Position numbers and translations under genes: made by a program. The notes under the pieces are model-generated. The model did not search any database. It was not told where the DNA came from and was given only the letters and a program-made list of their open reading frames with translations. 42,335 bases of DNA, from the NCBI GenBank assembly GCA_031835245.2, contig JAVKOQ020000004.1, positions 496,001-538,335 of the forward strand, given 5' to 3'. Every line of letters begins with the position of its first letter. Within the stretch, counting starts at the first letter, position 1. The DNA comes from Balamuthia mandrillaris (Eukaryota). Shown here in pieces: positions 2,184 to 34,783 of this stretch.

Positions 2184-5094
2184 ATGGCAACTGCTGGTGC
2201 GCAGCGGAAAGCCTGGGCCACTACGCAGCAGGCCAAACAAAGGGAATACGAGGAGCTGACGCGACAAAAGGCGGAATACGAGCAGAGGGCCAAGGCGGTA
2301 CGGCTTCGGCTGGTCGGGTCTGGCGCCGGCAAAGAGCCGCTGGAAAAAGAGATGCGGCGGCTGGTGGAGGAAGGGAAGACGCTCGTCCGCAAGTTGGACC
2401 GGTGCAAGAAGGAGATGCGCCAACATGCACGGCCGAACGATGCGGCTGCAGCAAAAGAGGAAGAGGGAGAAGAAGAAGGAACAAACAAGAGGCGAGCCCA
2501 AGAGGAGGCAACAAGAAAAGCAGGCGAAGCAAACAAAGAAGGAAAGGAAGCAGAAGAATGCACAGAGGATGCAGAAGAAGAGCACGACGACGACGACGAC
2601 GATGATGAAGACACCGAAGCATCCGAGGCGAGCGAAGATTCGAGTGAAGAGGAGGAGGAGGAGGAGGAGGAGGGAGCCAGTTTAGCAGAGCAGTTAAAAC
2701 AGGAGGAAGTGAAATTGAGCAGCATCACTTTTGCCAAACTCGCGAAAGAGGGTGAGGAGAGCCAGCAACGGGGAGATCTTACTGAGGAGAGCCTCTCCGC
2801 ACGGCAAAGAAGACTGGAAGAGAAGGAGAAAGAGCTGCAACGCAGCCACAAAGAACTGGTTGCCAAGATGAGAGACGTGGCCAAAGGTTTGCTGCAGAGG
2901 GAGCGAAAGTTGGAGAAGCAAAAACACCAACTGTTAGTGGAGAATAGAGAGCTGCTGAAGGAGAGACATCGCCTTGAGGACTGGAGCAAGAGTTTGAGGC
3001 GGTGGCAGGAAATGAAGGAGGAGTGGGAGAGCGAACGACAGTTGGAAGAGCTGAAGAAGGAAAGAGAGCTAGCCAAACAAGGCAAGACGGAGCGGTTACT
3101 CAAGTTCCAGTCTTTCTCCAGGCTGAGCGCTTCTGCTCGCATGGAGATCATGCAGGAAACCAGAGAGCAGTTGACTGGCTCTTCATTACGCCTGCGAACT
3201 CGTGCCAAGTCGTTAGGCGAAACGGATGGAGGCAACGACACTATCACCAACAATAATAATGCAGTGACGAAGAAGAGCACTGATAAAGGAGCAGGCGGAG
3301 GATGTGAGAGCAGCTTGGCTGGTCTGCATTTGGCTGTATCGCCGCGACATTCCGTGCATGAACTGATGGAGGAAGAACAAGGAAGCAGCAGCAAGAAGAG
3401 GAAAAGCGGTTCCAATTTGTATTCTCTGATCCGCAACAAAGATAAGAACAGCAGCCACGATTGCATCCGACAAGACTATGCAGAGGCCGCTCAAAACCAT
3501 TCAAAGAGCACAAAGAAGGACATCACTGAACTCTCCAAAGCTGAGCTATATTTCACCCGCTCGAAAATTTTGTCCGAGATAAAAACCTTTGAGAAGGGCA
3601 GTCAACTCAACTCTTCATCGACTTCGCTGGATATTCCTCGCAGGTCGCGCACTCTCTCATCTGACGAAGCAGCCAAGATCTTGCAGAGGCGGTGGAGACA
3701 ACGGAGAAAACCTTGCCTTCTTTATGCACTGGGTAATATAGGGAGCGATTCTTCTTTACCACCAGCCCTTTCCATTAACTGACCTGATTGTTTCTTATGT
3801 TAGTCCAACAGTACATTGCCTCAGAAGAGAGTGTGCCAGGAAAACAACGTAACATGGTGTACTTTGAGATTCTTCATAAAGAACGCGGTACGAGTTTTTT
3901 TTTTTTGCTGCTTTTCTTTGTATCCTTTCTCACTTAAATCCTCTTCACAAGACTATGTTGAAATGATGGAAATGGTGTTGAAGGTAAGTTCTATTCGTTG
4001 CTCACCTCCCTCCTTCTCCGTTTGCTTCAAATGGAAAAAAAAAGAAGAAAAATCTAAAGAACAGTGCGTAACGAATTGTTTTCTCTTACAGTGTTACATG
4101 GAGCCAATGCGAGCGTTGTCGCTGAGCGAAGGTGCATGCGTGACGCTGTACGATGTGGCAGCCATCTTTGGAAACTGGGAAAGTTTAGCTCACATAAACA
4201 AGGAGCTTTTGGCACAATTAGAAGAGCGAATGAGCGGGTGGCCTGCCATCACCACGGTTGGTGATGTGTTTGTCACGATGGTACGTTTTCATTGGCTCCA
4301 CACACCCCAATGTGATAGCATTCTAATAGTCACAAACTGCCTACCGCATCCAATCCTATGCCCTGCAATAGTTACCTTTGATGAGAATGTATGTCAAGTA
4401 TTATCTGAACTTTGACACCTCCAGCCAAACATTCGATCGGTGCAAGAAGAGCAAACCGTTTGCAGCTTTCCTCCAGCGTTGCCAAGCAGCGAGCAAACGA
4501 ATGGATGATTTGCCCCAGTTTCTTATAGCACCAGGTGTGTGCAAGCCTTTTCTTCATTTTGTTATGTTCTGTGCTTCGGCTTAACTGGACACATTTCCTT
4601 TCAAACAGTTCAACGGCTGCCGAGATATCAGCTTTTGCTTGAAAATCTATTCAAGTTGACTCCAGAACAACATGTACGTAGTTCATTTATTTTTCAAACA
4701 CGGCCACACAAACAACGTGCTTTCTTCTGCGAATAAGAAAGCATGGACGCTGTGTTGGCGGAGTAACGAGGACTAGAATTGTTGCAGTTTTTTTTAAAAA
4801 AATTCTTTGCTTGCTCTCCTGAGTTAGTGCATTGTTGCTTTCATGCTTGTACAGCAACAATGTGTTGCTGTAGAGCTACATGCACAGAGAAGGAAGAAAG
4901 GAAGATGAATGGATGGACAGAGAATAACTCCAATCTCCATTTTCTCTACAGGTCGATTACAGCAACCTTCAAAAAGCAATCAAGCAAATGAAGGCCCTAA
5001 TTGAATGGATAAACGAACAGACTGTTTTGGCTGATAAGCGCAAGCGCTTTTTAGAGGTGATGGACCAGATATCTGGCGATTCGTTCACTCTTAT

Positions 5095-8351: not shown

Positions 8352-10466
8352 TTAATTGGCTTTCTTGGAGTACTTGGCTCGCTTGCTTTCATGAGGATGA
8401 AGCGGGATGATGTGTTTAGCGAGCTGTTCATCGTAGTTGCGGTAATCAATATCGTGTTTCCACCGCAACAACCGCACGTTGTTACCTGGTCGAGGTAATA
8501 CAATCGAGGTTGGCTGTTCTTCAATCTGTACAAAGCTGCAGGGCTCGCCTCCAGCTTTAAGTTTTGGGGGAAGGGCCTCTTCTCGGAACATGTCTGCTGC
8601 TTGGTGGTCGGGGAACTCAAACCACAACTCCATGATCACCAACTCGCTTCCTTGCCCACTTGGTCGGGATAGAATGATAAAGGCTTGGTTCACCATTTGG
8701 GAGGGTAGCGCAGAGACGCATGTTTCAACGTCCTCTTCTCCAACAAAGTCCATTCTCAACAGGTTATATTGACGATAGACCTGATGTTGACAATCGTAAC
8801 CATCCACCTTGGAACGAGATTCCTTTTGCATAACAAAACCTTGGTGTGAAGCTTTGTCTTGGCTTTCGTGGATTGCTACCCTCTCCATCCACTTTTGAAG
8901 CAACGGTCCTCCCCAGCGAGGTAAAGGCAATTCCTCCAACTGTGTAAAAGCCAAACGGACGAGGGTGGATTTACCTTCATGGGTGTCCTGCATAACTTGG
9001 GCATAAACCTGTCGCGGTCCCATCCACTCTGAGGAGAGGTTCTCTGGGTTGTTATGTTGTTGGTCCATAAGGTGGAAGCGATTGGCACCAATAATAAGGA
9101 ACATGCCGATGATTAGCTGCGTTTGCAAGTTCGGGTCGGGGTTCAAAGGGCTAGGAGTGTCCATTCCGAAAGAGGATCCTCTCATGCGAACTCCAGACAT
9201 ATACATCCAGAAAGTAAGACGGTCATCCTCAGTCAAATGCCCAAACTTGGACTCTGCATAACAGCTGCGCAGAGAATAGCCAAATGTTTGGAGAGGGTGA
9301 GAAAGGGGTCTAGGGCGAGAAATAGAAGTGAGTACGTGCTTATTGATGAAACCCATTTCAGCACTCCAAGCCCACGCCATCATAAACACATCTTCCTGTT
9401 GAAATAACTTTCCATCCGTCGGAAAAACGAATCGAATGATTGCCAGAGGTTCAACGAGAATGTGCCTATTCAGCTCTGCCAGCACAAACGCAGCATTTAG
9501 TGGGTTTTCTGTAGTATATGTGTCCAAAAGCTTGTACGGATGTTTAGCGATAGCCGTCTCGAATAGAGCACAATGAAACTCCACTCCCATTGCAGTTTGT
9601 AGCTGCGTCGGCGCATACTTCCTGGTTAGACTACCCAAGTTGGTGTTTTGCTGATAAGGGATGGTGACGATATCTCTTGGCAGGTGGATGTAGCGTGGCA
9701 CCATGCGAGGGTGAGCTGGAGTTTTAGTGGCTACCAGAAGCTCGTAGGTGTGATGCATACGGAGTTGCTCTACGTCATGGTGTACCTCCCAAATGAACGG
9801 ATTGATGGCTCCGGCATCAGGGCTCAGCAGGGCTCGCCGCAGAAGGTAATGGATGGCAAGATCTTCCAAAAAGTTATCGGTGTTCATGCAAATGACGTAA
9901 GGGGTGGTCACTTGTTCCAGAGCCAAGTTGATTGCCGCGAAGGGCGGAAGTAAACTCGTGTCTTCCACAACTGTTAGGACGTGTTTTCCAAGATTCCTCT
10001 CCTGCTCTCGCAGCCACGTCACCAAGTCAGGAGGTTCTAGGCCATTGAGGACGAACACGCTGCGTATGCCTGTCGAATCTTTGTTCCACCAGTCTTCGAA
10101 GACTTGCTTTGCGTGTGAGAACTTCTCCCGTGACGTCCAGACCAGTGTCACTAGTTGAGATACAACCGGATCGAGCAACTCTTTAACTAAAGTAGGTTCA
10201 TCTGTATCAAGGAGTGCAGTCAACAATTGTGGCGATAACAAAGGGGTACGGAGATGTGGTGCGTCGCCTGTGTGCCTTTCCTTTACTCCTTCACAAGAAC
10301 AGCAGGCAGATATCTCAGCACCGCCTGTTGCTGGAACTGACGGGGCAACTCTCTGGATTTGCAAGTTTGCCTGGTCATGGTGAAGGTAGATAAAAGTCGC
10401 CGGGCCTAACAGTGCGACTACTATCAGGAGCACTGCTGCCCTGCACACAAGTTTGTAGAACTTCAT
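8352..10466 (-). CDS. Type II membrane GT-A fold (GT2-like) glycosyltransferase, 704 aa, single long ORF
   Basis: N-terminal signal anchor (AAVLLIVVALLGPATFIYL). GT2-like core VFVLNG...AAINLALEQVTTPYVICMNTDNFL...AGAINP. The C-terminal half is not recognised. A short intron near 9290-9340 cannot be excluded. Confidence 0.6.
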   Translation of the reverse strand: MKFYKLVCRAAVLLIVVALLGPATFIYLHHDQANLQIQRVAPSVPATGGAEISACCSCEGVKERHTGDAPHLRTPLLSPQLLTALLDTDEPTLVKELLDPVVSQLVTLVWTSREKFSHAKQVFEDWWNKDSTGIRSVFVLNGLEPPDLVTWLREQERNLGKHVLTVVEDTSLLPPFAAINLALEQVTTPYVICMNTDNFLEDLAIHYLLRRALLSPDAGAINPFIWEVHHDVEQLRMHHTYELLVATKTPAHPRMVPRYIHLPRDIVTIPYQQNTNLGSLTRKYAPTQLQTAMGVEFHCALFETAIAKHPYKLLDTYTTENPLNAAFVLAELNRHILVEPLAIIRFVFPTDGKLFQQEDVFMMAWAWSAEMGFINKHVLTSISRPRPLSHPLQTFGYSLRSCYAESKFGHLTEDDRLTFWMYMSGVRMRGSSFGMDTPSPLNPDPNLQTQLIIGMFLIIGANRFHLMDQQHNNPENLSSEWMGPRQVYAQVMQDTHEGKSTLVRLAFTQLEELPLPRWGGPLLQKWMERVAIHESQDKASHQGFVMQKESRSKVDGYDCQHQVYRQYNLLRMDFVGEEDVETCVSALPSQMVNQAFIILSRPSGQGSELVIMELWFEFPDHQAADMFREEALPPKLKAGGEPCSFVQIEEQPTSIVLPRPGNNVRLLRWKHDIDYRNYDEQLAKHIIPLHPHESKRAKYSKKAN

Positions 10467-13016: not shown

Positions 13017-13205
13017 TGTAATTGAGTGACCCCTCATCTCATTACCCCACATAAGGAAGGAACGAACACGAACACGATAACACGAAACCACCATAAGGAC
13101 CACGATACCAATCCTTTTTATACCAACACTATCTTTATGTTTATCTCTACAGACACAGACTACAATACATACTCTTTTCCCATATACCTATTTACTCTGC
13201 TAACA
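13017..13205 (+). repeat. 5' LTR (189 bp)
   Basis: Identical to 17254-17443 except ACAC vs AAAA (2 substitutions) and one T missing at the 5' terminus. Ends in CTAACA. Confidence 0.95.
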
Positions 13206-13218
13206 GGTTATGGGCCCA
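13206..13218 (+). promoter_or_regulatory. Primer-binding site GGTTATGGGCCCA (half-tRNAiMet primer type)
   Basis: Immediately after the 5' LTR. Same motif class as Drosophila copia and yeast Ty5, which prime from the initiator-tRNA anticodon stem-loop region. Confidence 0.85.
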
Positions 13219-13269
13219 CAGTCAAACTAAAACTGCTACACTCACAATCTCCTTCAAACACACTGCACG

Positions 13270-13990
13270 ATGGACAAGTTGAAAATCAAACCGTTTGACG
13301 GACATGGATTCCAGGATTGGAAATGCCAGATGAGAACGCTCTTGAAGAGCAAGGGCGTATGGGGCTATGTTGACGGAACGATAACCATAGGAGCCAGCAG
13401 CAGCCAAAAGCAGGAAGACATCGAGTTTAATCCAGCGAATGACGCCATAGCCAGCGGTTTGATCTGTAGCTGTCTCACCCTACCACTCTTGAGACAGGTG
13501 ATGAACCTTGAAAGTGTGAAAGAACAGTGGGATAGGCTTTGCGAGAAATATGACAAGGCTGACACCACTAGAAGGACCGAGCTCCGCACCAAGCTTGCTA
13601 CAAAAATGAGGGACAATCAGGACCTCAACAAACACCTCGATAAGTTCAACAGCCTGATCGGCGAGGCAGACCTAATCTTCAGCAACGCTTCGATACCTGA
13701 GGACGAAAAGATCCACTACCTCCTAAACAGCTTACCAGAAAGCCTGGAGCACATCTCTTCTTCACTAACACTATCCTTGAAGGACAGCAGCACCTACAAG
13801 GAGATATTGGACAAACTTAGACTCGAAGCTGCCCGAAAGAAAAGCAAGTTTGATGGCAAAGGCGAATCAATCATGTATGGACGCCATAGACAACGTGGAA
13901 ACAGAAAGGACCATGGTTGTTGAGAGAAGAAAGATAAAGATATTGAGTGCTACAAGTGCCATGGATTTGGACACATAGCGAAGAAGCAGT
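13270..13990 (+). pseudogene. gag: copia gag, with premature stop and broken zinc knuckle
   Basis: FDGHGFQDWKCQMRTLLKSKGVWGYVDG...LLNSLPES. Stop TGA 13921-13923, then CYKCHGFGHIAKK lacking the last Cys, with a frameshift near 13985. Confidence 0.88.
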
Positions 13991-14023
13991 CAGAACGGTA
14001 GTAAGAAAAAGAAAGGAGAGCGA

Positions 14024-17000
14024 ATGATGAACGTGTCGCTCAAAGGAGGATCACCAACCGGAGACATAATCTTGGACTCCGGAGCATCCTGCCACATGAC
14101 GGGTAACAAAGGCCTGCTAACGGACTGTAAGCCAACAAAACCAACCAAGGTCTACTTTGCAAACGGCGAAAAGATAACCGCCACGGAAGCTGGTAACCTA
14201 CGTTATATAACAGAGACAAAGTACGGACACGAAACGTGTGTTTTCCAAGATGTACTCTACGTCGACGGATTCGACAAAACGCTAATATCCACGACGACCC
14301 TGGACCGAAGAGGAATAACCATTTCCTCATCCGGCGGAGTCACCAGACTCAAACAGGACGGAATGGTCATCGGTATCGGAATATTGGAGGAAGACGGACT
14401 ATACCACCTCCAAGGCAAACCAGAGCCGCGAAAAGAGCACGCTAATACCGCAGTGGACGAATGGCACAAACGTTTGGGCCACATCAGCATTGAAAAGCTG
14501 AAGGAACTACCGAAGATCACGAACGGAATTGATATACCCAGCGGCGCAACCCTCGCACCGTGTACTGCCTGCCTCAAGGGCAAGCAATCCCGAAACCCCG
14601 TTAGTACAGAACCAGCCACTCGAGCCACAGAGAAGCTCGAATTAGTGCACACGGACATATGCGGACCAATGCAGACCTCCATCGGAGGGTCCAGATACTT
14701 CATTACCTTCACGGACGACCTGACCAGACGAACCTGGGTCTACGGACTGGCCACGAAGGACGGTGCACTGGAACGATTCCAAGAATTCGAAGCTTTGGCC
14801 ACCAACCAAAGCGGCAAAAGGATCAAGGCACTACGAAGCGACAACGGCGGCGAATACATTAGCAAAAACTTCAGAAACCACCTACACAAGAACGGCATAC
14901 AAACCCAAACGTCTGCACCCCATACACCGGAGCAGAACGGAGTCGCTGAAAGAAAGAACAGGACGCTTATGGAGAAAGCACGATGTATGCTTCAACACGC
15001 TGACCTGGACGAGAAATATTGGGGGCCAGCCATCAACATGGCGAACTACATCACGAACCGCACCGGCACCAGCGCAGTCAACGGAATGACGCCAGAAGAA
15101 GCTTGGACTGGAAAGAAACCGTCTCTCCGACACATCCAAATCTTTGGAAGCAGACCGTGGACGCTCATACCCAGTAACGACCGAAAGAAACTAGATGCCA
15201 AAGCGAAGGAGCTCATCTACCTTGGACCCACATACCCTCTACAACCCAAAGACAAAGAGAATTACTCTTTCACGCAACGTAAAGTTCATCCAACCTGAAC
15301 GGAGCACAATGGACGACGAGAAAGAAAAACTCACCTCCATCAAAAACAAGCCTGAGCAACCGAAGAGGATGCAAACTTCAGACCTAAGCGACAAAGAGGA
15401 CTCTGACTCAAGCGAAGATGAAGAGGAGGAAGGCGAAGACAGCGAAACTAAGGCTGATGAGAACGCAGGCGAAACCAAAGGCAAGCAACCTATCAACAGC
15501 AGCGACGGAAACGGCAAAGCCATCATCGATAAGAAGACAACCAACCCTGCATTTTCATTCCTCAAAAAGCCACGAGCAGACGGGAAACGAGCTATCACGA
15601 TAACCTCGCGACTCATCGAAGAGGATCCCAAGAAGAAGAGTGCCAACCTGGTCACCTACGCGCTGATCGCAGCAATCATCGGGGAACCAAAAACCTACGA
15701 AGAAGCAATCAACGGACCAGATCGAGAGAAGTGGCTTAAGGCGATGTCAGAAGAGTTCGAAGCTCTGATGAAGAACAAAACTTGGCGACTCGTTAAACGA
15801 CCCGGAAGAGAGAGAACCATCGTCAAGAACAAATGGACATTCAGAATTAAGCGGAATGCCCACGGCGAGATCGAACGATACAAGGCCCGACTCGTTGCCA
15901 AAGGCTTCACTCAAGTGAAAGGAGTCGACTACTTCGAAGTCTATGCACCAGTCGTTCGAATGACATCGATTAGAATCATCATAGCCTTTGCGACATTCTA
16001 CGACCTAGAACTCCACCAGTTGGATATTGTCACAGCATTCCTCAACGCTACCATGAAAGAAGTCATCTACATGGAGCAACCTGTAGGATTCGTCGACCCC
16101 GAGCATCCCGACGACGTCTGCCTCTTAGAAAAGGGACTATACGGCACGAAGCAAGGAGCAAGAGAGTGGAACGGAGAATTTGATAGCACTCTCGTTGACC
16201 TTGGCTTCGAAAAAGCATCAGCCGACTGCTGCATCTACTTCAAATGGGAGAACAACAACATCATCATCATCGGACTGTACGTTGACGACCTACTGATCGC
16301 GGGAACAACCGAGAACATCAACAAGTTCAAGAACGACTTGAAGTCACACTACGACGTGAAGGACTTGGGACCAGCCCAATTCATCCTCGGAATCCAGATC
16401 AAACGCGACCGACAGAACCGACGCACAACACTACTCCAACCTACCTACATCAGCAATATGCTCGAGAAGTACAACATGCACAAAAGCAGGCCAATCGACA
16501 CCCCAACGCAAGTGGGAGTAAAGCTAACGAAGTATAGCAATTCGAGGAAGCTCGACCCCAAGGTTCCTTACCGAAACGCAATCGGAAGCTTAATGTACGC
16601 AGCCACCGGAACCAGACCCGACATAGCATTCGCCGTTAACGAGCTCGCTAGATTCACAGCTGACCCCAAAGTGGAACACTGGAAAGCCCTAAAAAGAATC
16701 TTTCGCTACCTCAACGGAACAAGAAACCACGGTATCACCTTCGACACCAACGACGCTAACGCTTCGAAACTTATTGGATACGCCGACGCCGACTACGCCA
16801 ACAACATCGACTCAAGAAGATCGACCACGGGATATGTCTTCAAATTCTGCGGAGGACCAATATCATGGCAATCGAGAAAACAGAAGACCGTCGCGCTATC
16901 TACAACCGAAGCCGAATATATGAGTATCACCGAAGCAACCAAAGAAGCTATCTGGTTAAGAAGACTGCTAGACGATATCGGAGAAACCCAAGAGGGACCT

Positions 17001-17267
17001 ACCATCATCTACGAGGACAACATTGGATGTATCGAACTGTCCAAGAACCCAGGAAACCACTCCAGAACAAAGCACATCGACATTCGACACCACAAGATCA
17101 GGGAAGAAACCAAGAAGGGTACCATCAAGCTGGAGTACATGGCCAGCGACGAGATGCCCGCCGATGTTCTGACCAAACCCCTACCGCGAGACAAACACGT
17201 CAAACTAATCACGGACATCGGAATGAGACAAGAGAATCGGGATCAAGTGGGAGTGTTAATTGAGTGA
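14024..17267 (+). pseudogene. pol: copia pol (protease, integrase, RT, RNase H) with a frameshift near 15230
   Basis: ILDSGASCHM (PR); WHKRLGH..CTAC; VHTDICGP/RSDNGGEY/PEQNGVAER (IN); YKARLVAKGF, QLDIVTAFL, LYVDDLL (RT); YADAD/STTEAEY/YEDN/ADVLTK (RNase H). The frame switches at LIYLGPT|TLYNPK. The stop lies inside the 3' LTR. Confidence 0.93.
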
Positions 17268-17443
17268 CCCCTCATCTCATTACCCCACATAAGGAAGGAA
17301 CGAACACGAACACGATAACACGAAACCACCATAAGGACCACGATACCAATCCTTTTTATACCAACACTATCTTTATGTTTATCTCTACAGAAAAAGACTA
17401 CAATACATACTCTTTTCCCATATACCTATTTACTCTGCTAACA
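17254..17443 (+). repeat. 3' LTR (190 bp)
   Basis: TGTTA...TAACA terminal inverted repeat, preceded by purine-rich AAGTGGGAG. Confidence 0.95.
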
Positions 17444-17459
17444 TGACCCATATTGGAGG

Positions 17460-17768
17460 GGCGACAACGGGGGCAACGGAAGACCTTCTTCCCTCCCAGT
17501 TTCTGGTGGATACGTCCGCATCTTCCACAGGTCTTGGAGGTGTAGTGCTCGTCCACGATCACGATGCCCCCGTTGTCGCCTGGAAGCAGACAGAGACATC
17601 CATGCTGCCAGGAACGTCCTTTTGTGTTTCCTGGCACATCAGGACATCATTGTGGCGAAAGGTAGGGAGCTGTACGGACAGAGTCCGGCAGCATTGGGTC
17701 CTACACCCGTGAATGCATCCACCCATTGTGGTGCATTTGTGCAAGATTTGCAAAATGTGCAAGTTTAA
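17460..17768. pseudogene. Fanzor/TnpB (IS607-like, Fanzor2-type) nuclease C-terminal remnant with internal inversion
   Basis: Minus strand 17460-17564 reads VIVDEHYTSKTCGRCGRIHQKLGGKKVFRCPRCR. Plus strand 17565-17768 reads CPRCRLEADRDIHAARNVLLCFLAH...QV*. Joined, these give the E.YTS-CxxC...CxxC-DRDxxAARN signature. Confidence 0.88.
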
Positions 17769-17794
17769 TGTAGGCGTGGAGGGAATCTTTCATA
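17669..17794 (+). ncRNA. Putative omegaRNA scaffold (~17669-17774) plus candidate guide (~17775-17794)
   Basis: Stem-loops at 17669-17692, 17696-17708, 17711-17738 and 17740-17752. Loop CCTAC (17700-17704) is complementary to GTAGG (17770-17774). Overlaps the 3' end of the nuclease ORF, as expected for TnpB/Fanzor omegaRNAs. Confidence 0.5.
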
Positions 17795-17882
17795 TCGAAG
17801 CTGACCCATATTGGAGGGGTTCTATCTAGACACGAAATTTATTAGAACTTTGTGGTCAGGTTTTTTTTTTGACCTCCCTCAC

Positions 17883-20127
17883 TCACTGGCTGCTGCCGCC
17901 GGTATGGGAGTCCAACCACTGCGCAACTGCATCACGATCGCGAGCAAGCCAGGCGGCGTTGCTCCTGATAGCCTCCAAGCTCTGCTTCACAGTCCTAGCG
18001 GCAGGCTCGTAAGGGTGCTCGGCAAAGAAATGCTCCACCTCTTCCGCTTTCTCCTCCGAGGTGAAGCCCTTGGTGGAGTAGCTGATCACGCGGGTGAGCA
18101 AGGTACCGCCATCGCCCAACAGCTCCATGTACTTGCTCCAGTTGTCCTGTACGAAGCGCCAGGTGATCTCGCGACCCTCCACGCTGTCGGCGGTGGAGAC
18201 GATGACGTACATAACGTCCTGCGCTCTGACCTCGTTAGTGTCCAGCGACATTCGCAACGTCCGCTGTAGTCGATCTATGTGTTACAGCGAAGATAAAGTT
18301 CAAAAGTTTTACATAAAATCGACATAGAAGGAGGAAGGCAGAAACATACCTTCATCGTGAGTGTATCCAAGAGCTCTCAACGCGCGGATCTTTTCTTCAT
18401 GGAGAGTGGCCTCTTTGTAGATTTTATAGACGCTGTCCCATTCAACAGCTCCTCCGTTGGACACCACCTGTTTGTTTCAAAAACGTTGTCAGCGTTTTCA
18501 TTATTTGCAAAGGCTCAACTGGGCAAAGGATTGCATACCGCTTTGTAGACGACACCTCGTAAGTCAGCAGGAATGGCTTTGCTATCGTTTAGGAACTTTT
18601 GGAAGCGGGTTTTGGCCTCGTTGATGGTTGCCTCATCGCCAGCATCCACCAACCTGCTCAACAGAACAGTTCTCAGGAGGGTTTGCAGATCTTCCTCTCC
18701 TTGCTTCTTATCCCTGTTGGGACAGCAAAAAAAAAAAAAAGATAAGTCAATAAAGGGGAGAGAGAGACAATGAGAAGGAAATAAGCGTACCAGCCAAGGT
18801 TGGAAGCCGCGGGGCCAATCAAGGAGCGAATGAAGGCGTTGAGCTGAGGAGCGGCAGGTTCAGCCTCCCAGACTGATGCCATTTGAGCCAAGTTAATTGA
18901 CAAATCCGACCAGATCGTGTAGTCCGTCTCATTGCCATACGCACTTGCCAATGTCAACACCTTTGAAAACAAGTCACATGAGTCATGTTGAAATTAAAAT
19001 TACATAGAAGGGAAAGGAAGAGGGACGAAGAGACCTGCGAGGTGGGGAGGTGACCAGCTTTAGCCAATGCAAAGGCGTCATTCTGGATACCTAGTCTGTC
19101 GATAGTGCCAAGACTGTGGCCATCAAGGGCCGCCAACAGTTTCTGCACCATCGCTGGCGAATACTTGACGCGGAAAAAGCCGGTGGAGTTCGCGTTGGCC
19201 TTAACCCAAGCAGCACCCTTTGCAGAGGTGACTTCGATCTCTTGTTTCGTGTCCTTGATGTCCACGCGCTCCGCCTCTTGAGATGTTGAACTATAGTGTT
19301 TTTATCAAAGAGAAGAATAGGAGAGTAATCATTTAGTTTTGTCTGCTAAGGAACAAAGAGACAGGAGAAAAAAAGAAAGGTGAACCTGATAAAACCGACA
19401 TTCATCCACCAAACGGTAGAGTTGCCCTCAACGGTCTCCCCAGAGGAGAGGAAGCGCTGCTGCTCAGTTGCATAGACGCCCGCTTTTTCAGTCTCCTCTA
19501 TAGAGAGCACAGGGTAACCGACAGCCTTGGTCCAGTTATCCATAAACTCTTTGACGGGCAAGCCAGAGCTTTCCGCAAGAGCCGCCCAAAGGTCCTTTTA
19601 AGTGGTAGGCAATTGATAACAGGTTCAGAATCGAAGGTCATAAAGAGATTTGAAGTGCAACGTACCTCAGTAACGGCATTGGCGTACTTGTGGCGCCCAA
19701 GATAGATTTGAAGACCCTTTTGGAAGCGTTCTTCTCCCAAGTAATTGGCCACCATGCGGATGACAGAAGCTCCTTTGCTGTAGCTGATGGCATCAAAGAT
19801 TTCGTTGACCTGCGCAGAGCTGGATACCTCCACTTCAATGGGATGAGAGTTCTTGAGGCCTACACATGGTTGAGTTGATATCAGTAAAAGAAACTAAAGA
19901 AAAAGGTAGAGACACACAAACCATCAAGTTCCAAGGCACGGGCAATGTAGTCAGTGACAAATTGAGTCCATATGTTCCACTCAGGGAACAATTGAGCAAC
20001 AGCTTGGTTGCCCATGAATGTAGCAAAGCCTTCATTCAGCCAAAGTTCCTTCCACCATTCCATTGTTACAAGGTTGCCGAACCACTGATGAGCCACTATA
20101 AGAGGAAAAAAGTGTCACTTTCAATTA

Positions 20128-20158
<31 letters not shown>

Positions 20159-20510
20159 GCTTCTCACGTTCATGAGCAACAACATAAGCAACGCGCTGCT
20201 TTTGGGACACCGAGGAGTTCTCGGGATCGATGAGAAGAGCTGTTTCACGATAGGTCACCAAGCCCCAGTTCCTATTGATAGAAAGGTTAGAAACAGTTGT
20301 GGTCGAAGAGGCAAGCGAATGTTGGCTCTTACTCCATAGCACCTGCAGCAAAGTCCGCAATTGCAATCATGTCTAATGTGCAAGCGCCATGTGAGTATAA
20401 AAACCAGAGGAAATTCTTCGCGATTTACTTACCCAGTTTAGGAAGAGGATACGGAATGTCAAACCAGTCGCTATAATAAGAGAGGATCTTCGCTGTTGTA
20501 AAAGTCAAGG

Positions 20511-20550
<40 letters not shown>

Positions 20551-21850
20551 GCGAGAGGGGTGGGACAAACCTCCAACATCAAGGGCGAATCTTCCTTGCT
20601 CCTTCTTTCCAACCGGAGTGTACACTCGAACAGTGACGTCTTCCTTGGTTTGCGTTTCTGTATAGTCAAACTCGCCAACAATGAAGGCAAGAAGATAAGT
20701 GGACATAATGGGAGTTTCCTGAAATGTGATGACATTCTGGCCCTTCTCGTTGGTGACCTTTGAGTCTTGAGGCATGTTGCTGAGAGCCTGCAACTCAGCG
20801 GGGATGGTGAGAGTCACCTCGAAAGTGGCTTTCACTGCGGGCTCGTCCCAACAGGGGAATGCCCTACGAGCATCTGCCAAAGTGATGTCAACAAAAGAGA
20901 GCAGAGAGAGCAGAGAGAGCAGAGAGAGAGGAGAGGTAACCAGTTGGCTCGAACTGAGTGGTGGCCATGTACTTCTCCTTGTCGCCAACCATGTACTTGG
21001 AGCGATAGAAACCCGCCATCTGATCGTTGAGAGTACCCCTAAAGTCCACTTCCAACTTGGAGGCATCCTCCTTCAATGCCTCATCAAAGGTAAACTGGCG
21101 ATGATGAATGACATATTGTCAGAGTGAGTGAAAAGATAATCGAGTGACAGTCCAGTGAACTTACAGTTACGGTCTCTTCCTTCTCATCATAAGAGATGGT
21201 GGCTGACTGTCCATCGACCTTTGCAGAGTCGATCTTGATGTCTCGAGAGTGGATGGTAAGTGTTTTGGTGGACGTGTTTACCTGCAGCAATCAAATCAAC
21301 CAAACAGTCAGTCTTTAACTTCGATGGTGGAGGGTGTACACAGCTGCACTAAAAACAGAGAAACAAAGGCACCACTGACCTTGATGTCCACAGTCTCCAA
21401 CCCATGGAAGGTAAAGTCATCAAAGTTGGGGGTGAGGTGAATGTAATACTTGAGAGGAATCACATCCTTGGGCAGCAACACTCGTGTGGTATTATTCATG
21501 CTGGGGGGGGGGGTGGAGGAACCGTGGTTCAAACCTACAAACAAGAATAGCAAGAAAACAAGCACAGCAAAGCCAATCAGCAACAGCACAGCTGGCACCA
21601 ACCGCTGTTCAGCGAAAGAAAATGGGCGTGGCTGGTCTTCTGGCGCTGGTAGTGGGAAGTCGTCTTCCCGGTCTGCTTCTCCTTCCTCTTGTTCCCGCAA
21701 GAGCTCTCTTTGGTCGTCGTCCTCCTCCCCTCCTCCAAAGACAGTCAAAGGCACGTCGTCCAGCGAGCTGTGGTTGCTGCTACCTCCTCCTCCGCTGCTG
21801 CTGCTTATGTAGCTTTCCGCTTGGTGGTGGTGGTTGCCTTTTGCCGCCAT
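17883..21850 (-). CDS. M1-family aminopeptidase (puromycin-sensitive aminopeptidase-like) with N-terminal TM anchor; multi-exon
   Basis: [91 protein letters not shown] (HEXXH split by an intron), [20 protein letters not shown]1_C-type C-terminus. Confidence 0.95.
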
Positions 21851-34099: not shown

Positions 34100-34783
34100 A
34101 TGAAGAGGATACCGATGGTACAGGAAGGAGAAGCCTTGGTATCTGAAACCAACCCAACAATGAACAACAACCACCCCAAGCAAGCTTTTGTGGTGCGATC
34201 GCTTCCTTCTTCTTCTCCTTTAACAACAAGTGAAAACAAAAAGGGCAAGGAGCCTTGTTGTATGGAAGACTTGCCGCCGGACCTGCTGAGCAAGATCTTG
34301 GCAAGCCTGCCCAAGGAGAACGTAGCGGTTGCTGCAAGGACCTGTCGCTCGTGGTACGCTTGCAGCCCCGTGCACCTCAGGCAGAAGTTTTCTCTGAGGT
34401 GGGTATGCAGCTGCTTGGGGGCCTTGAAGTGGGCACGCCTTGAACAGGGTTGCCCTTGGCACGCCAAGGTTTGCCAGGCCGCCGCAGGGACGGGCTGTTT
34501 GGCGGCGTTGAAATGGGCGAGAGCCAACGGCTGCCCTTGGGATGAGTACACTTGTGCCTACGCTGCTGGCTACGGCCAGCTGAAAGTGCTGAAATGGGCG
34601 AGAGCCAACGGCTGCCCTTGGGACGAGCACACCTGTGCCTTTGCTGCCAAGAATGGCCATTTGGAGCTGCTCATGTGGGCGAGAGAGAACGGCTGCCCTT
34701 GGAACTGGTGGACTAGCTTCAATGCCAAGAAGCACGGTCATTTGGAAGTGTTGGGATGGGCAAACGCTAACGGATGTTGGTGA
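34100..34783 (+). CDS. F-box-like plus 'WARANGCPWD' divergent ankyrin-repeat protein, intronless
   Basis: MEDLPPDLLSKILASL...AARTCRSWY (F-box-like), then repeats of CxxAAxxGxLxxLKWARANGCPWD. Start codon uncertain. Confidence 0.8.
   Translation: MKRIPMVQEGEALVSETNPTMNNNHPKQAFVVRSLPSSSPLTTSENKKGKEPCCMEDLPPDLLSKILASLPKENVAVAARTCRSWYACSPVHLRQKFSLRWVCSCLGALKWARLEQGCPWHAKVCQAAAGTGCLAALKWARANGCPWDEYTCAYAAGYGQLKVLKWARANGCPWDEHTCAFAAKNGHLELLMWARENGCPWNWWTSFNAKKHGHLEVLGWANANGCW

What the first reader, a model, noticed from the sequence alone, without database searches (positions are those of the whole stretch)
17460..17768. Hidden Fanzor/TnpB RNA-guided nuclease remnant split across both strands by an inversion
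Seen: the minus strand encodes VIVDEHYTSKTCGRCGRIHQKLGGKKVFRCPRCR. The plus strand, in a frame missing from the ORF track, continues CPRCRLEADRDIHAARNVLL. The CPRCR codons occur twice as a perfect 16-bp inverted repeat (17460-17475 / 17565-17580). Knowledge: Glu just before YTS-CxxC, a 4-Cys finger and DRDxxAARN are the C-terminal RuvC-II/ZnF/RuvC-III hallmarks of IS607-type TnpB and eukaryotic Fanzor2. Inference: this genome hosts or hosted a Fanzor family, possibly an undescribed one. Neither piece carries a stop within the conserved motifs, so intact copies may exist elsewhere.
Basis: partly seen in the sequence, partly recalled or inferred. Interest (0 to 1): 0.9.

Follow-up and report, generated by a model that had tools for sequence, protein, structure and literature searches.

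The report
Inverted, truncated Fanzor2 copy in amoeba
This is a broken, partly flipped tail piece of an RNA-guided DNA-cutting jumping gene (Fanzor2) that has many copies in the amoeba Balamuthia; the piece is too short to encode a nuclease, keeps a predicted guide-RNA end, and was likely copied in from RNA, which would be unusual for this kind of element.

Summary
The two pieces match adjoining, overlapping parts of Pfam Cas12f1-like_TNB, and their best solved relative is mimivirus Fanzor2. The host is Balamuthia mandrillaris. Sequencing runs show a multicopy family: the un-inverted form exists, the reading frame continues upstream in other copies, copies share one right end (17776/17777), 5' ends vary, and the tail is transcribed. 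Close metagenomic relatives carry an IS607 serine recombinase and the same right-end motif; a loop/right-end pseudoknot co-varies (15 of 24 against 1.9 by permutation). One contig of one run holds the inversion junction; the left junction was seen in none of four runs. The layout (direct repeat, inverted 5' piece, forward 3' piece) is that of a twin-primed, 5'-inverted retrocopy, my preferred but unproven mechanism; template-switching repair from DNA is a close rival. No full-length copy was seen. Verdict: a dead copy of a Fanzor2 family not found in print for this host, in a known class; moderate-low interest, with a testable lead that guide RNAs are retro-copied.

The parts
13019..13205 (+). 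5' LTR of a Copia retrotransposon; its start differs from the 3' LTR by one base or is clipped by three
   Evidence: 187 bp, 98.9% identical to 17257-17443
13270..17267 (+). Copia gag-pol in three separate frames (gag; protease-like/integrase; RT)
   Evidence: Retrotran_gag_2, Pol_BBD, rve, RVT_2; frames
17254..17443 (+). 3' LTR of the Copia; abuts the left direct repeat exactly; no 5-bp duplication shared with the left flank of the 5' LTR
   Evidence: (190-nt LTR contig in X4, many flanks at both ends)
17444..17461 (+). left copy of an exact 18-bp direct repeat (candidate target-site duplication); last 2 bases shared with the inverted piece (microhomology)
   Evidence: not covered by any contig in 4 runs
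17460..17560 (-). inverted Fanzor2 piece: catalytic Glu (17550-17548), YTSKTC motif and four-Cys finger
   Evidence: PF07282 20-46, E 9e-9; aligns to 9b0l 463-494; native continuation beyond 17560
17561..17564 (+). 4-base junction insert that makes a 6-bp tandem duplication (17554-17565); not in any family variant seen
   Evidence: sequence; loose ends in 4 of 4 runs; junction contig X1 17531-17593
17565..17768 (+). forward Fanzor2 piece: repeats 16 bp of the inverted piece, RD-xx-AARN motif (Asp at 17595-17597), C-terminal tail, stop
   Evidence: PF07282 43-60; 9b0l to residue 510; un-inverted joint 17460->17581 in X3, depth 276
17696..17776 (+). predicted omegaRNA scaffold core and element right end: hairpin 17696-17708 whose loop 17700-17704 is complementary to 17770-17774 (pseudoknot), two further hairpins
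   Evidence: fold z -2.0; co-variation in relatives; divergent flanks behind 17776/17777 in 3 of 3 contig runs
17777..17801 (+). 25 single-copy bases between the right end and the right direct repeat; the predicted guide of this copy; native flank or carried in from a donor copy (open)
   Evidence: single-copy depth in X1, and a 222-nt contig 17748-17969 without difference in X4
17802..17819 (+). right copy of the 18-bp direct repeat
   Evidence: covered by X1 and X4 contigs
17883..21066 (-). neighbouring host M1 aminopeptidase exons (stop at 17883); context only
   Evidence: ERAP1_C and Peptidase_M1_N; spliced joints

Best explanation
17460-17776 is a 5'-truncated, partly inverted copy of the tail of a multicopy Fanzor2 element of Balamuthia mandrillaris, likely of the IS607 type, too short to encode the nuclease but keeping a predicted guide-RNA right end, and it was likely written into a staggered break from a single-stranded sense template, most likely the element's own RNA. 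Mechanism (inferred): one broken end primed at the 3' end of the transcript and copied leftwards to 17565; the other end (the left 18-bp repeat) primed inside the same transcript by 2 bases of microhomology and copied 101 bases further 5', which comes out inverted; the two copies overlapped by 16 bases and were joined with a 4-base slipped insert; fill-in left the 16-18-bp direct repeat (twin priming, as in 5'-inverted LINE retrocopies). The Copia arrived or recombined afterwards (inferred from its missing duplication). Shown: homology, multicopy family, un-inverted form, fixed right end, varied 5' ends, sense transcripts of the family tail. Inferred: dead state as a protein, omegaRNA fold, IS607 mobility of full copies, RNA template, order of events. 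Identity about 0.95; this insertion mechanism about 0.45.
For: Homology: (9b0l best, E 6e-9 for the two-piece profile; no Fanzor1 structure among 22 hits). 66 of 69 top relatives of >=400 aa have DPG and 69 of 69 the shifted Glu + CxxC. The best-scoring locus L001 and also L002-L004 carry a Resolvase ORF upstream (4 of 4 tested by Pfam). Right-end motif in 9 of 80 metagenome loci, 0 of 79 viral, 0 of 63 prokaryotic. Pseudoknot: 15 of 24 distinct loop/right-end pairs complementary, permutation mean 1.9, maximum 8, 10 different 5-mers. Host: window proteins cluster at 90% with named B. mandrillaris proteins; the family tail is a mis-called exon of a B. mandrillaris DTW gene, absent from its sister record. 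Family: X1 depth 277-858 on the ORF pieces and about 2000 on the last 90 bases against 19-93 on the unique flank; un-inverted 217-nt contig in X3; divergent flanks behind 17776/17777; foreign sequence at 5' points 17517, 17617, 17639, 17685. RNA: X22 reads on 17694-17781 have the mate orientation opposite to the minus-strand host gene, i.e. sense RNA. Inversion junction in one X1 contig at depth 12.7. Twin-priming geometry, ~15-bp duplications, microhomology and tailless ncRNA retrocopies: PMC2912911 passages.
Against: No poly(A) tail. The right direct repeat starts 25 bases beyond the element end, and the origin of those bases is untested. The Copia abuts the left repeat exactly and has no duplication of its own, so the left side has been changed and the true duplication may have been longer (up to 43 bp). 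The left junction (17444-17459) had no cover in 4 of 4 runs, and the inversion junction was seen in 1 of 4 runs, with 30 and 28 letters a side (under the tool's 31 rule) and one base fewer than the window; X2 of the same sample lacks it. No LINE reverse transcriptase was shown in this genome (no assembly held). No full-length Fanzor or recombinase of this family was found in this host. The short profile does not by itself separate Fanzor2 from cyanobacterial pro-Fanzors (median 67.6 against 67.1 bits). The RNA signal rests on 60 reads in all, 70% from other copies. Of 137 loci only 28 had both motifs for the pseudoknot test, and related loci are not independent.
Confidence: 0.5

Rival explanations
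1. Same dead Fanzor2 piece, but made by DNA-templated break repair with template switching: a Fanzor copy already sat at this locus (25-base flank native), a break near the Copia was healed by microhomology-primed copying of an allelic or sister copy, first inverted and then forward, which deleted the 5' part and duplicated 18 bases.
For: 2-base microhomology and a slipped 4-base insert are typical of polymerase-theta or template-switch repair (own knowledge). The Copia without a matching duplication shows the left side was rearranged. No poly(A). Two alleles exist at the locus. A 7-mer recurs at 17777 and 17812 (12 of 15 alike).
Against: Does not by itself explain the family-wide pattern of fixed right end and varied 5' ends, including a 92-base copy joined straight to a host exon. 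Needs two switches whose breakpoints fall within 16 bases of each other, which twin priming gives in one step.
Confidence: 0.3
2. Fanzor-driven abortive homing: the nuclease cut an empty site about 18 bases from its target motif and repair from a filled copy or from the bound RNA stopped early, leaving a 5'-truncated copy in an 18-bp duplication.
For: Fanzor2 cut sites at 15-21 bases (PMC10530073, PMC10432273 passages) match the 16-18-bp length. Bao and Jurka saw 5'-truncated Fanzor1 copies with 7-19-bp duplications just behind a fixed motif (PMC3627910 section 8).
Against: This model puts the right duplicate flush with the right end; here it lies 25 bases away. A GCG motif 16 bases before the junction was seen by eye in 1 of 3 other 5' junctions, within chance.
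Confidence: 0.1
3. The inversion (or the Copia join) is an assembly or library artefact and the locus holds a plain 5'-truncated copy.
For: Left junction not covered in 4 of 4 runs, middle junction in 1 of 4. The young Copia (LTRs 98.9% alike) is split over three frames, and all contigs differ from the window at 17391-17394, which may mean consensus errors in repeats.
Against: A contig at depth 12.7, about half the single-copy depth, holds the middle junction with its 4-base insert. Contig sets drop low-depth links between high-copy repeats (tool text). The exact 18-bp duplication of unique flank is hard to get by mis-assembly. The right junction stands in a second sample (X4).
Confidence: 0.1

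Closest known systems
Fanzor2 of IS607-type elements: mimivirus ApmFz2/ApmFNuc (protein L79, PDB 9b0l; PMC10530073), Acanthamoeba castellanii ACa-1/-2 (PMC3627910), Naegleria lovaniensis NlovFz2 (PMC10432273)
   Same: Shifted catalytic Glu before the Zn finger, C4 finger, RD motif; relatives with DPG, HTH_OrfB_IS605 and an upstream serine recombinase; omegaRNA overlapping the ORF end with a loop/right-end pseudoknot (10.1101/2023.08.09.552727 passages); amoebal host.
   Different: Different host and right-end motif; only 317 bases of the tail; no recombinase, left end or N-terminal half here; flanked by an 18-bp direct repeat, which IS607 transposition does not make (PMC3627910 passage); 5' piece inverted.
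5'-truncated Fanzor1 copies CRe-1, -2, -3 of Chlamydomonas (PMC3627910 section 8)
   Same: Fixed 3' end, 3' overabundance, varied 5' truncation, variable duplications of 7-19 bp (some 44-443 bp), occasional extra sequence at the 5' side.
   Different: Those are Fanzor1 in Helitron2 elements, explained by rolling-circle copying from the 3' end; this is Fanzor2 in an IS607-like clade with no HUH enzyme known, and the duplication is not flush with the right end.
5'-inverted LINE-1 and trans-mobilised retrocopies made by twin priming (PMC2912911)
   Same: Direct repeat - inverted 5' piece - forward 3' piece - direct repeat; ~15-bp duplication; microhomology at the 5' junction; tailless ncRNA retrocopies exist.
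   Different: Template is a DNA-transposon transcript; no poly(A); no LINE shown in this genome; left flank replaced by a Copia.
Ghost omegaRNA loci of Spizellomyces Spu-1 (PMC10432273 passages)
   Same: Protein-less loci that keep the guide-RNA end, more numerous than coding copies.
   Different: Ghosts keep both inverted-repeat ends; the copies here lack a left end where it could be checked.
Cyanobacterial pro-Fanzor IS607 TnpB (10.1101/2023.08.09.552727)
   Same: Same active-site arrangement; these are the nearest prokaryotic hits of the relatives' alignment, mostly 32-37% identical.
   Different: None of 63 prokaryotic loci has the right-end motif; the window's family is nuclear, inserted in amoebal genes.

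Membership tests
Fanzor/TnpB | C-terminal [TS][TS]xx-C4 finger-x(5,50)-RD motif / PF07282 | tested here: met
   profile positions 20-46 and 43-60; motif definition from PMC3627910
Fanzor/pro-Fanzor | Catalytic Glu shifted to just before the Zn finger | tested here: met
   Aligns with E467 of 9b0l; E467A abolishes cleavage in PMC10530073
Fanzor/pro-Fanzor | RuvC-I DPG motif | not testable with these tools
   That part is missing from this copy and no full-length family copy was reachable; 66 of 69 long relatives have it
Fanzor2 (against Fanzor1) | Closer to Fanzor2/IS607 TnpB than to Fanzor1; N-terminal HTH_OrfB_IS605 | tested here: met
   9b0l best hit for the pieces and for the relatives' alignment (E 1e-46); no Fanzor1 structure listed; HTH in L001, L002, P0006. 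No tree was built; HTH seen in relatives only
Fanzor (against prokaryotic TnpB) | Resides in a eukaryotic nuclear or viral genome | tested here: met
   Between intron-bearing B. mandrillaris genes; another copy in a host exon. Sequence score alone does not separate it from cyanobacterial pro-Fanzors
Fanzor/TnpB | omegaRNA at the right end with loop/3'-end pseudoknot, followed by a variable guide | tested here: met
   Complementary loop and right end, co-variation 15 of 24 against 1.9; variable flanks behind 17776/17777. Prediction only; no Rfam match
Fanzor/TnpB | Processed omegaRNA expressed; RNA-guided DNA cleavage | not testable with these tools
   Only total RNA reads: sense transcripts of the family tail, few reads. 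This copy cannot encode the enzyme
IS607 element | Serine recombinase TnpA upstream of TnpB/Fanzor2 | tested here: inconclusive
   Absent from this copy; present in L001-L004 and by motif in 22 of 79 metagenome loci; host genome not held
IS607 element | No terminal inverted repeats, no target-site duplication, intact left end | tested here: not met
   This copy has no left end and lies within an 18-bp direct repeat, so it was not placed by ordinary IS607 transposition
Twin-primed 5'-inverted retrocopy | Duplication flanking an inverted 5' piece and a forward 3' piece, with microhomology at the 5' junction | tested here: met
   duplication 16-18 bp, 2-base microhomology, 16-bp overlap
Twin-primed 5'-inverted retrocopy | Poly(A) or 3' microhomology at the 3' junction; empty allele with one copy of the duplication | tested here: inconclusive
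   No poly(A); the other allele aligns only from 17825 rightwards and its upstream letters were not shown
Twin-primed 5'-inverted retrocopy | A non-LTR retrotransposon in the host | not testable with these tools
   No genome held; paper searches gave no usable repeat census

The most novel reading that the evidence does not exclude
Fanzor2 guide RNAs in Balamuthia are retro-copied: transcripts holding the scaffold plus about 25 bases of donor flank are reverse-transcribed into new sites, so a DNA transposon seeds tens of protein-less guide loci that carry the donor's guide instead of the local flank. That would uncouple guide from locus, give the nuclease a spreading guide repertoire in trans, and make this 5'-inverted copy (downstream of an LTR that could transcribe it) the footprint of an RNA-based route not found in the papers searched.
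Probability: 0.18. Interest if true: 0.72.

Novelty: new member of a known kind. Interest (0 to 1): 0.36.

Why it matters
As a fragment it matters little: dead Fanzor tails are common. Two points have some value. It records a young, multicopy, transcribed Fanzor2 family in Balamuthia mandrillaris, which protein databases and the two surveys checked do not list; un-inverted copies are candidates for a further compact eukaryotic RNA-guided nuclease with a predictable guide scaffold. And the 5'-inverted, duplication-flanked layout plus many 5'-truncated tails bears on an open question since 2013: how Fanzor copies with fixed 3' ends, ragged 5' ends and variable duplications arise. In an IS607-type family a rolling-circle explanation is not available, so this genome is a good place to test RNA-templated spread.

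Tried and rejected
No whole genome is held, so no genome-wide copy census. Exact family DNA patterns found nothing in metagenome contigs or viral contigs. Protein searches for a full-length family member: 0 hits with the minus piece, only the mis-called DTW exon with the plus piece, one 49% relative with the two-piece alignment; all weak negatives. Rfam: no match in 17200-18000. Folding 17620-17820 was unremarkable (z -0.65); 17640-17776 and 17685-17776 gave z -1.1 and -1.3, only the shorter core reached -2.0, so energy alone does not show the RNA. PDB search with the plus piece alone: 0 hits. Left-end and target-motif mapping from relatives failed: no pair with the same right-end motif had both left flanks. 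My first reading of a fungal host was wrong. The loose end before 17727 in X3 resembles the element itself and was not counted as a truncation; 17696 coincides with a contig start and was not counted. Holes in cover (X3 17782-18221; X4 17562-17605; 17428-17459 in all runs) are not taken as absence. A canonical Fanzor cut at this site was considered and ranked low on geometry. No structure was predicted: the pieces are too short to add to the sequence evidence. Look-ups of earlier findings by place, sequence and a first word set gave nothing.

Full report
1. Observation. Six-frame translation shows both peptides at the stated places, without stops in the motifs. The exact inverted repeat is 16 bp (17460-17475 / 17565-17580); it is the only non-overlapping one within 500 bp in the window, and 1 of 20 Markov resamples held one. 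The repeat search also gave an exact 18-bp direct repeat, 17444-17461 / 17802-17819 (0 of 30 shuffles), and self-BLAST gave two 187-bp LTRs, the right one ending at 17443, around Copia gag, integrase and RT frames.

2. Homology. The minus piece matches PF07282 positions 20-46 (E 9e-9) and the plus piece 43-60 (E 1e-3), so they adjoin with an overlap; NCBIfam gives guided_TnpB and IS607_TnpB below their cut-offs. The best PDB match is 9b0l, mimivirus L79; the Glu aligns with E467, whose mutation abolishes cleavage (PMC10530073, passages), and the RD Asp with D501 (catalytic role recalled). A profile of the two pieces found 4623 proteins at E<=1e-3; 145 of the best 150 have the Glu-xx-TS-CxxC motif and 66 of 69 long ones DPG. 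An alignment of 22 of them plus the pieces hits 9b0l at E 1e-46, and no Fanzor1 structure is listed. One of ten top relatives looked up is named from the fungus Diversispora epigaea; the others have no taxon. In metagenome contigs the best-scoring locus L001 and L002-L004 carry a Resolvase ORF upstream. Prokaryotic relatives are mostly cyanobacterial at 32-37% identity, as described for pro-Fanzors (10.1101/2023.08.09.552727; first of seven parts and passages read). The short profile scores prokaryotic and metagenomic loci alike (medians 67.1 and 67.6 bits), so the Fanzor call rests on the nuclear setting and the right end.

3. Host. Two window proteins are in the collection and cluster at 90% with named Balamuthia mandrillaris proteins (2 of 5 window ORFs looked up). 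The plus piece's only long hit is a B. mandrillaris DTW-domain protein that holds 28 residues of the family tail at 96%; its sister record lacks them.

4. Family. Twenty runs of ten studies hold part of 17444-20400; I laid seven different runs, X1 twice. In X1 summed depth is 19-93 on unique flank, 277-858 on 17474-17693 and about 2000 on 17694-17781; X3 shows the same gradient (not a copy number). X3 holds a 217-nt contig at depth 276 that runs down 17560-17460 and on along 17581-17687: the un-inverted form. All runs show the ORF going on beyond 17560 with the same letters, up to 87 more bases before the contigs end. Many different flanks follow 17776/17777 in 3 of 3 contig runs. Foreign sequence joins the element at 17517 (X1), 17617 and 17685 (X4) and 17639 (X3, a 409-nt contig with both flanks); the letters before 17685, read by eye, encode the DTW exon, so that copy has no left end. 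In the raw RNA run X22 (60 reads laid, about 3% of the run) 11 reads continue into the native ORF, and reads on 17694-17781 have the orientation opposite to the minus-strand host gene, i.e. sense RNA.

5. Guide-RNA end. The window's last bases match a motif found in 9 of 80 metagenome loci, 0 of 79 viral and 0 of 63 prokaryotic loci. A hairpin at 17696-17708 has a loop complementary to 17770-17774. Of 137 loci with a C-terminal hit, 28 had both a hairpin and a right-end motif, 24 after collapsing identical ones (the window included); 15 of 24 are complementary against 1.9 by permutation (maximum 8 in 5000), with 10 different 5-mers. Kinship inflates the count, but the changing 5-mers are what a pseudoknot predicts, and this pseudoknot is described for IS607 TnpB and Fanzor2 RNAs. 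Folding energy alone is weak (z -0.65 to -2.0), and Rfam has no match.

6. Is the inversion real? One X1 contig of 62 nt, depth 12.7, spans 17531-17593 with the 4-base insert and one C fewer; it has 30 and 28 letters on the two sides, just under the tool's bridging rule, and X1 may be the assembly's own sample. X2 (same sample), X7 and X11 lack it, and none of the four covers 17444-17459. Contig sets drop weak links between high-copy repeats, so this is no proof of absence. The right junction stands without difference in X1 and in a second sample, X4. I put the inversion at about 0.85-0.9 real.

7. Mechanism. The order is: LTR end, 18-bp repeat, inverted 101 bases, 4-base slipped insert, forward 212 bases overlapping the inverted piece by 16, 25 unique bases, 18-bp repeat. 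The end of the inverted piece that touches the left repeat is its 3' end, sharing 2 bases with it. This is the layout of twin-primed 5'-inverted retrocopies, which have ~15-bp duplications and microhomology, and ncRNA retrocopies mostly lack poly(A) (3 of 25 had tails; PMC2912911, passages). With a single-stranded sense template both broken ends must prime on one strand, which forces the inversion; IS607 elements are not known to use such a DNA intermediate (own knowledge), while their tail is transcribed. I therefore prefer RNA-templated insertion (about 0.45-0.5). Against: no poly(A), no LINE shown, the 25-base offset, and the Copia, which abuts the left repeat and lacks its own duplication, so the left side was altered. 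DNA-templated switching from an allelic copy is the main rival (0.3). A canonical Fanzor cut (15-21 bases from the motif; PMC10530073 and PMC10432273, passages) fits the repeat length but not its place (0.1).

8. Known and new. Fanzor2 is known in amoebae (ACa-1/-2 in PMC3627910; NlovFz2 in PMC10432273). 5'-truncated, 3'-overabundant Fanzor1 copies with 7-19-bp duplications were described in 2013 (PMC3627910 sections 8 and 12 read whole). No paper of the library holds both Balamuthia and Fanzor; Balamuthia is absent from 2 supplement files of PMC10530073 and 9 of PMC10432273, one further file unreadable; those tables hold clustered representatives, and the supplements of the bioRxiv preprint were not seen, so a listing elsewhere is possible. 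Searches for truncated Fanzor copies made by abortive repair gave 0 papers and 9 of which none looked on topic from the listing. Three earlier notes of this scan describe similar dead Fanzor tails in other genomes (unchecked), which lowers the novelty of truncation as such.

9. Verdict. Real, correctly read, and ordinary in class: a dead tail of a Fanzor2 family new for this host. No full-length copy was seen. Interest 0.36; the retro-copied-guide reading has probability about 0.18 and would deserve about 0.7.

Noticed in passing
window 13019-17443: Copia with LTRs differing at 2 of 187 bases yet gag-pol split over three frames, no matching 5-bp duplication, and both LTRs differing from all laid contigs at 17391-17394: recent decay, inter-element recombination or consensus errors.
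   Followed up: partly
P0155 against P0156; X4 loose end before window 17685: A 92-base family tail sits inside an exon of a B. mandrillaris DTW-domain gene in one record and is absent from the sister record, so insertions are polymorphic and recent; the gene caller read it as host protein.
   Followed up: partly
window 17825-17982: A second allele (11 differences and 5-7 gaps in 158 bases) in X1 and X4 aligns only from 17825 rightwards; its upstream sequence was not shown.
   Followed up: no
window 17777-17791 and 17812-17826: The bases just behind the right end and a stretch 35 bases on are 12 of 15 alike with the first 7 identical; unexplained.
   Followed up: partly
window 17748-17969 (run X4): X4 shows spliced host joints although labelled DNA, so it is probably RNA; its contig across the right end may be the aminopeptidase 3' UTR reading antisense into the element.
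   Followed up: no
window 34100-34783: Single ORF with F-box plus 27-residue ankyrin-like repeats (81-bp tandem unit), an architecture I recall from amoebae and giant viruses.
   Followed up: partly
P0018: A 178-residue relative fuses a resolvase front half to the Fanzor2 tail: an internally deleted IS607-type element.
   Followed up: partly
L160, L177: The closest 'prokaryotic' hits lie on 2-kb contigs of metagenome bins and score like the eukaryote-type relatives; possibly mis-binned.
   Followed up: no
window 8352-10466 and 2184-3782: A 704-residue ORF with only a weak glycosyltransferase-2 hit and a 532-residue A-rich ORF without Pfam match.
   Followed up: no
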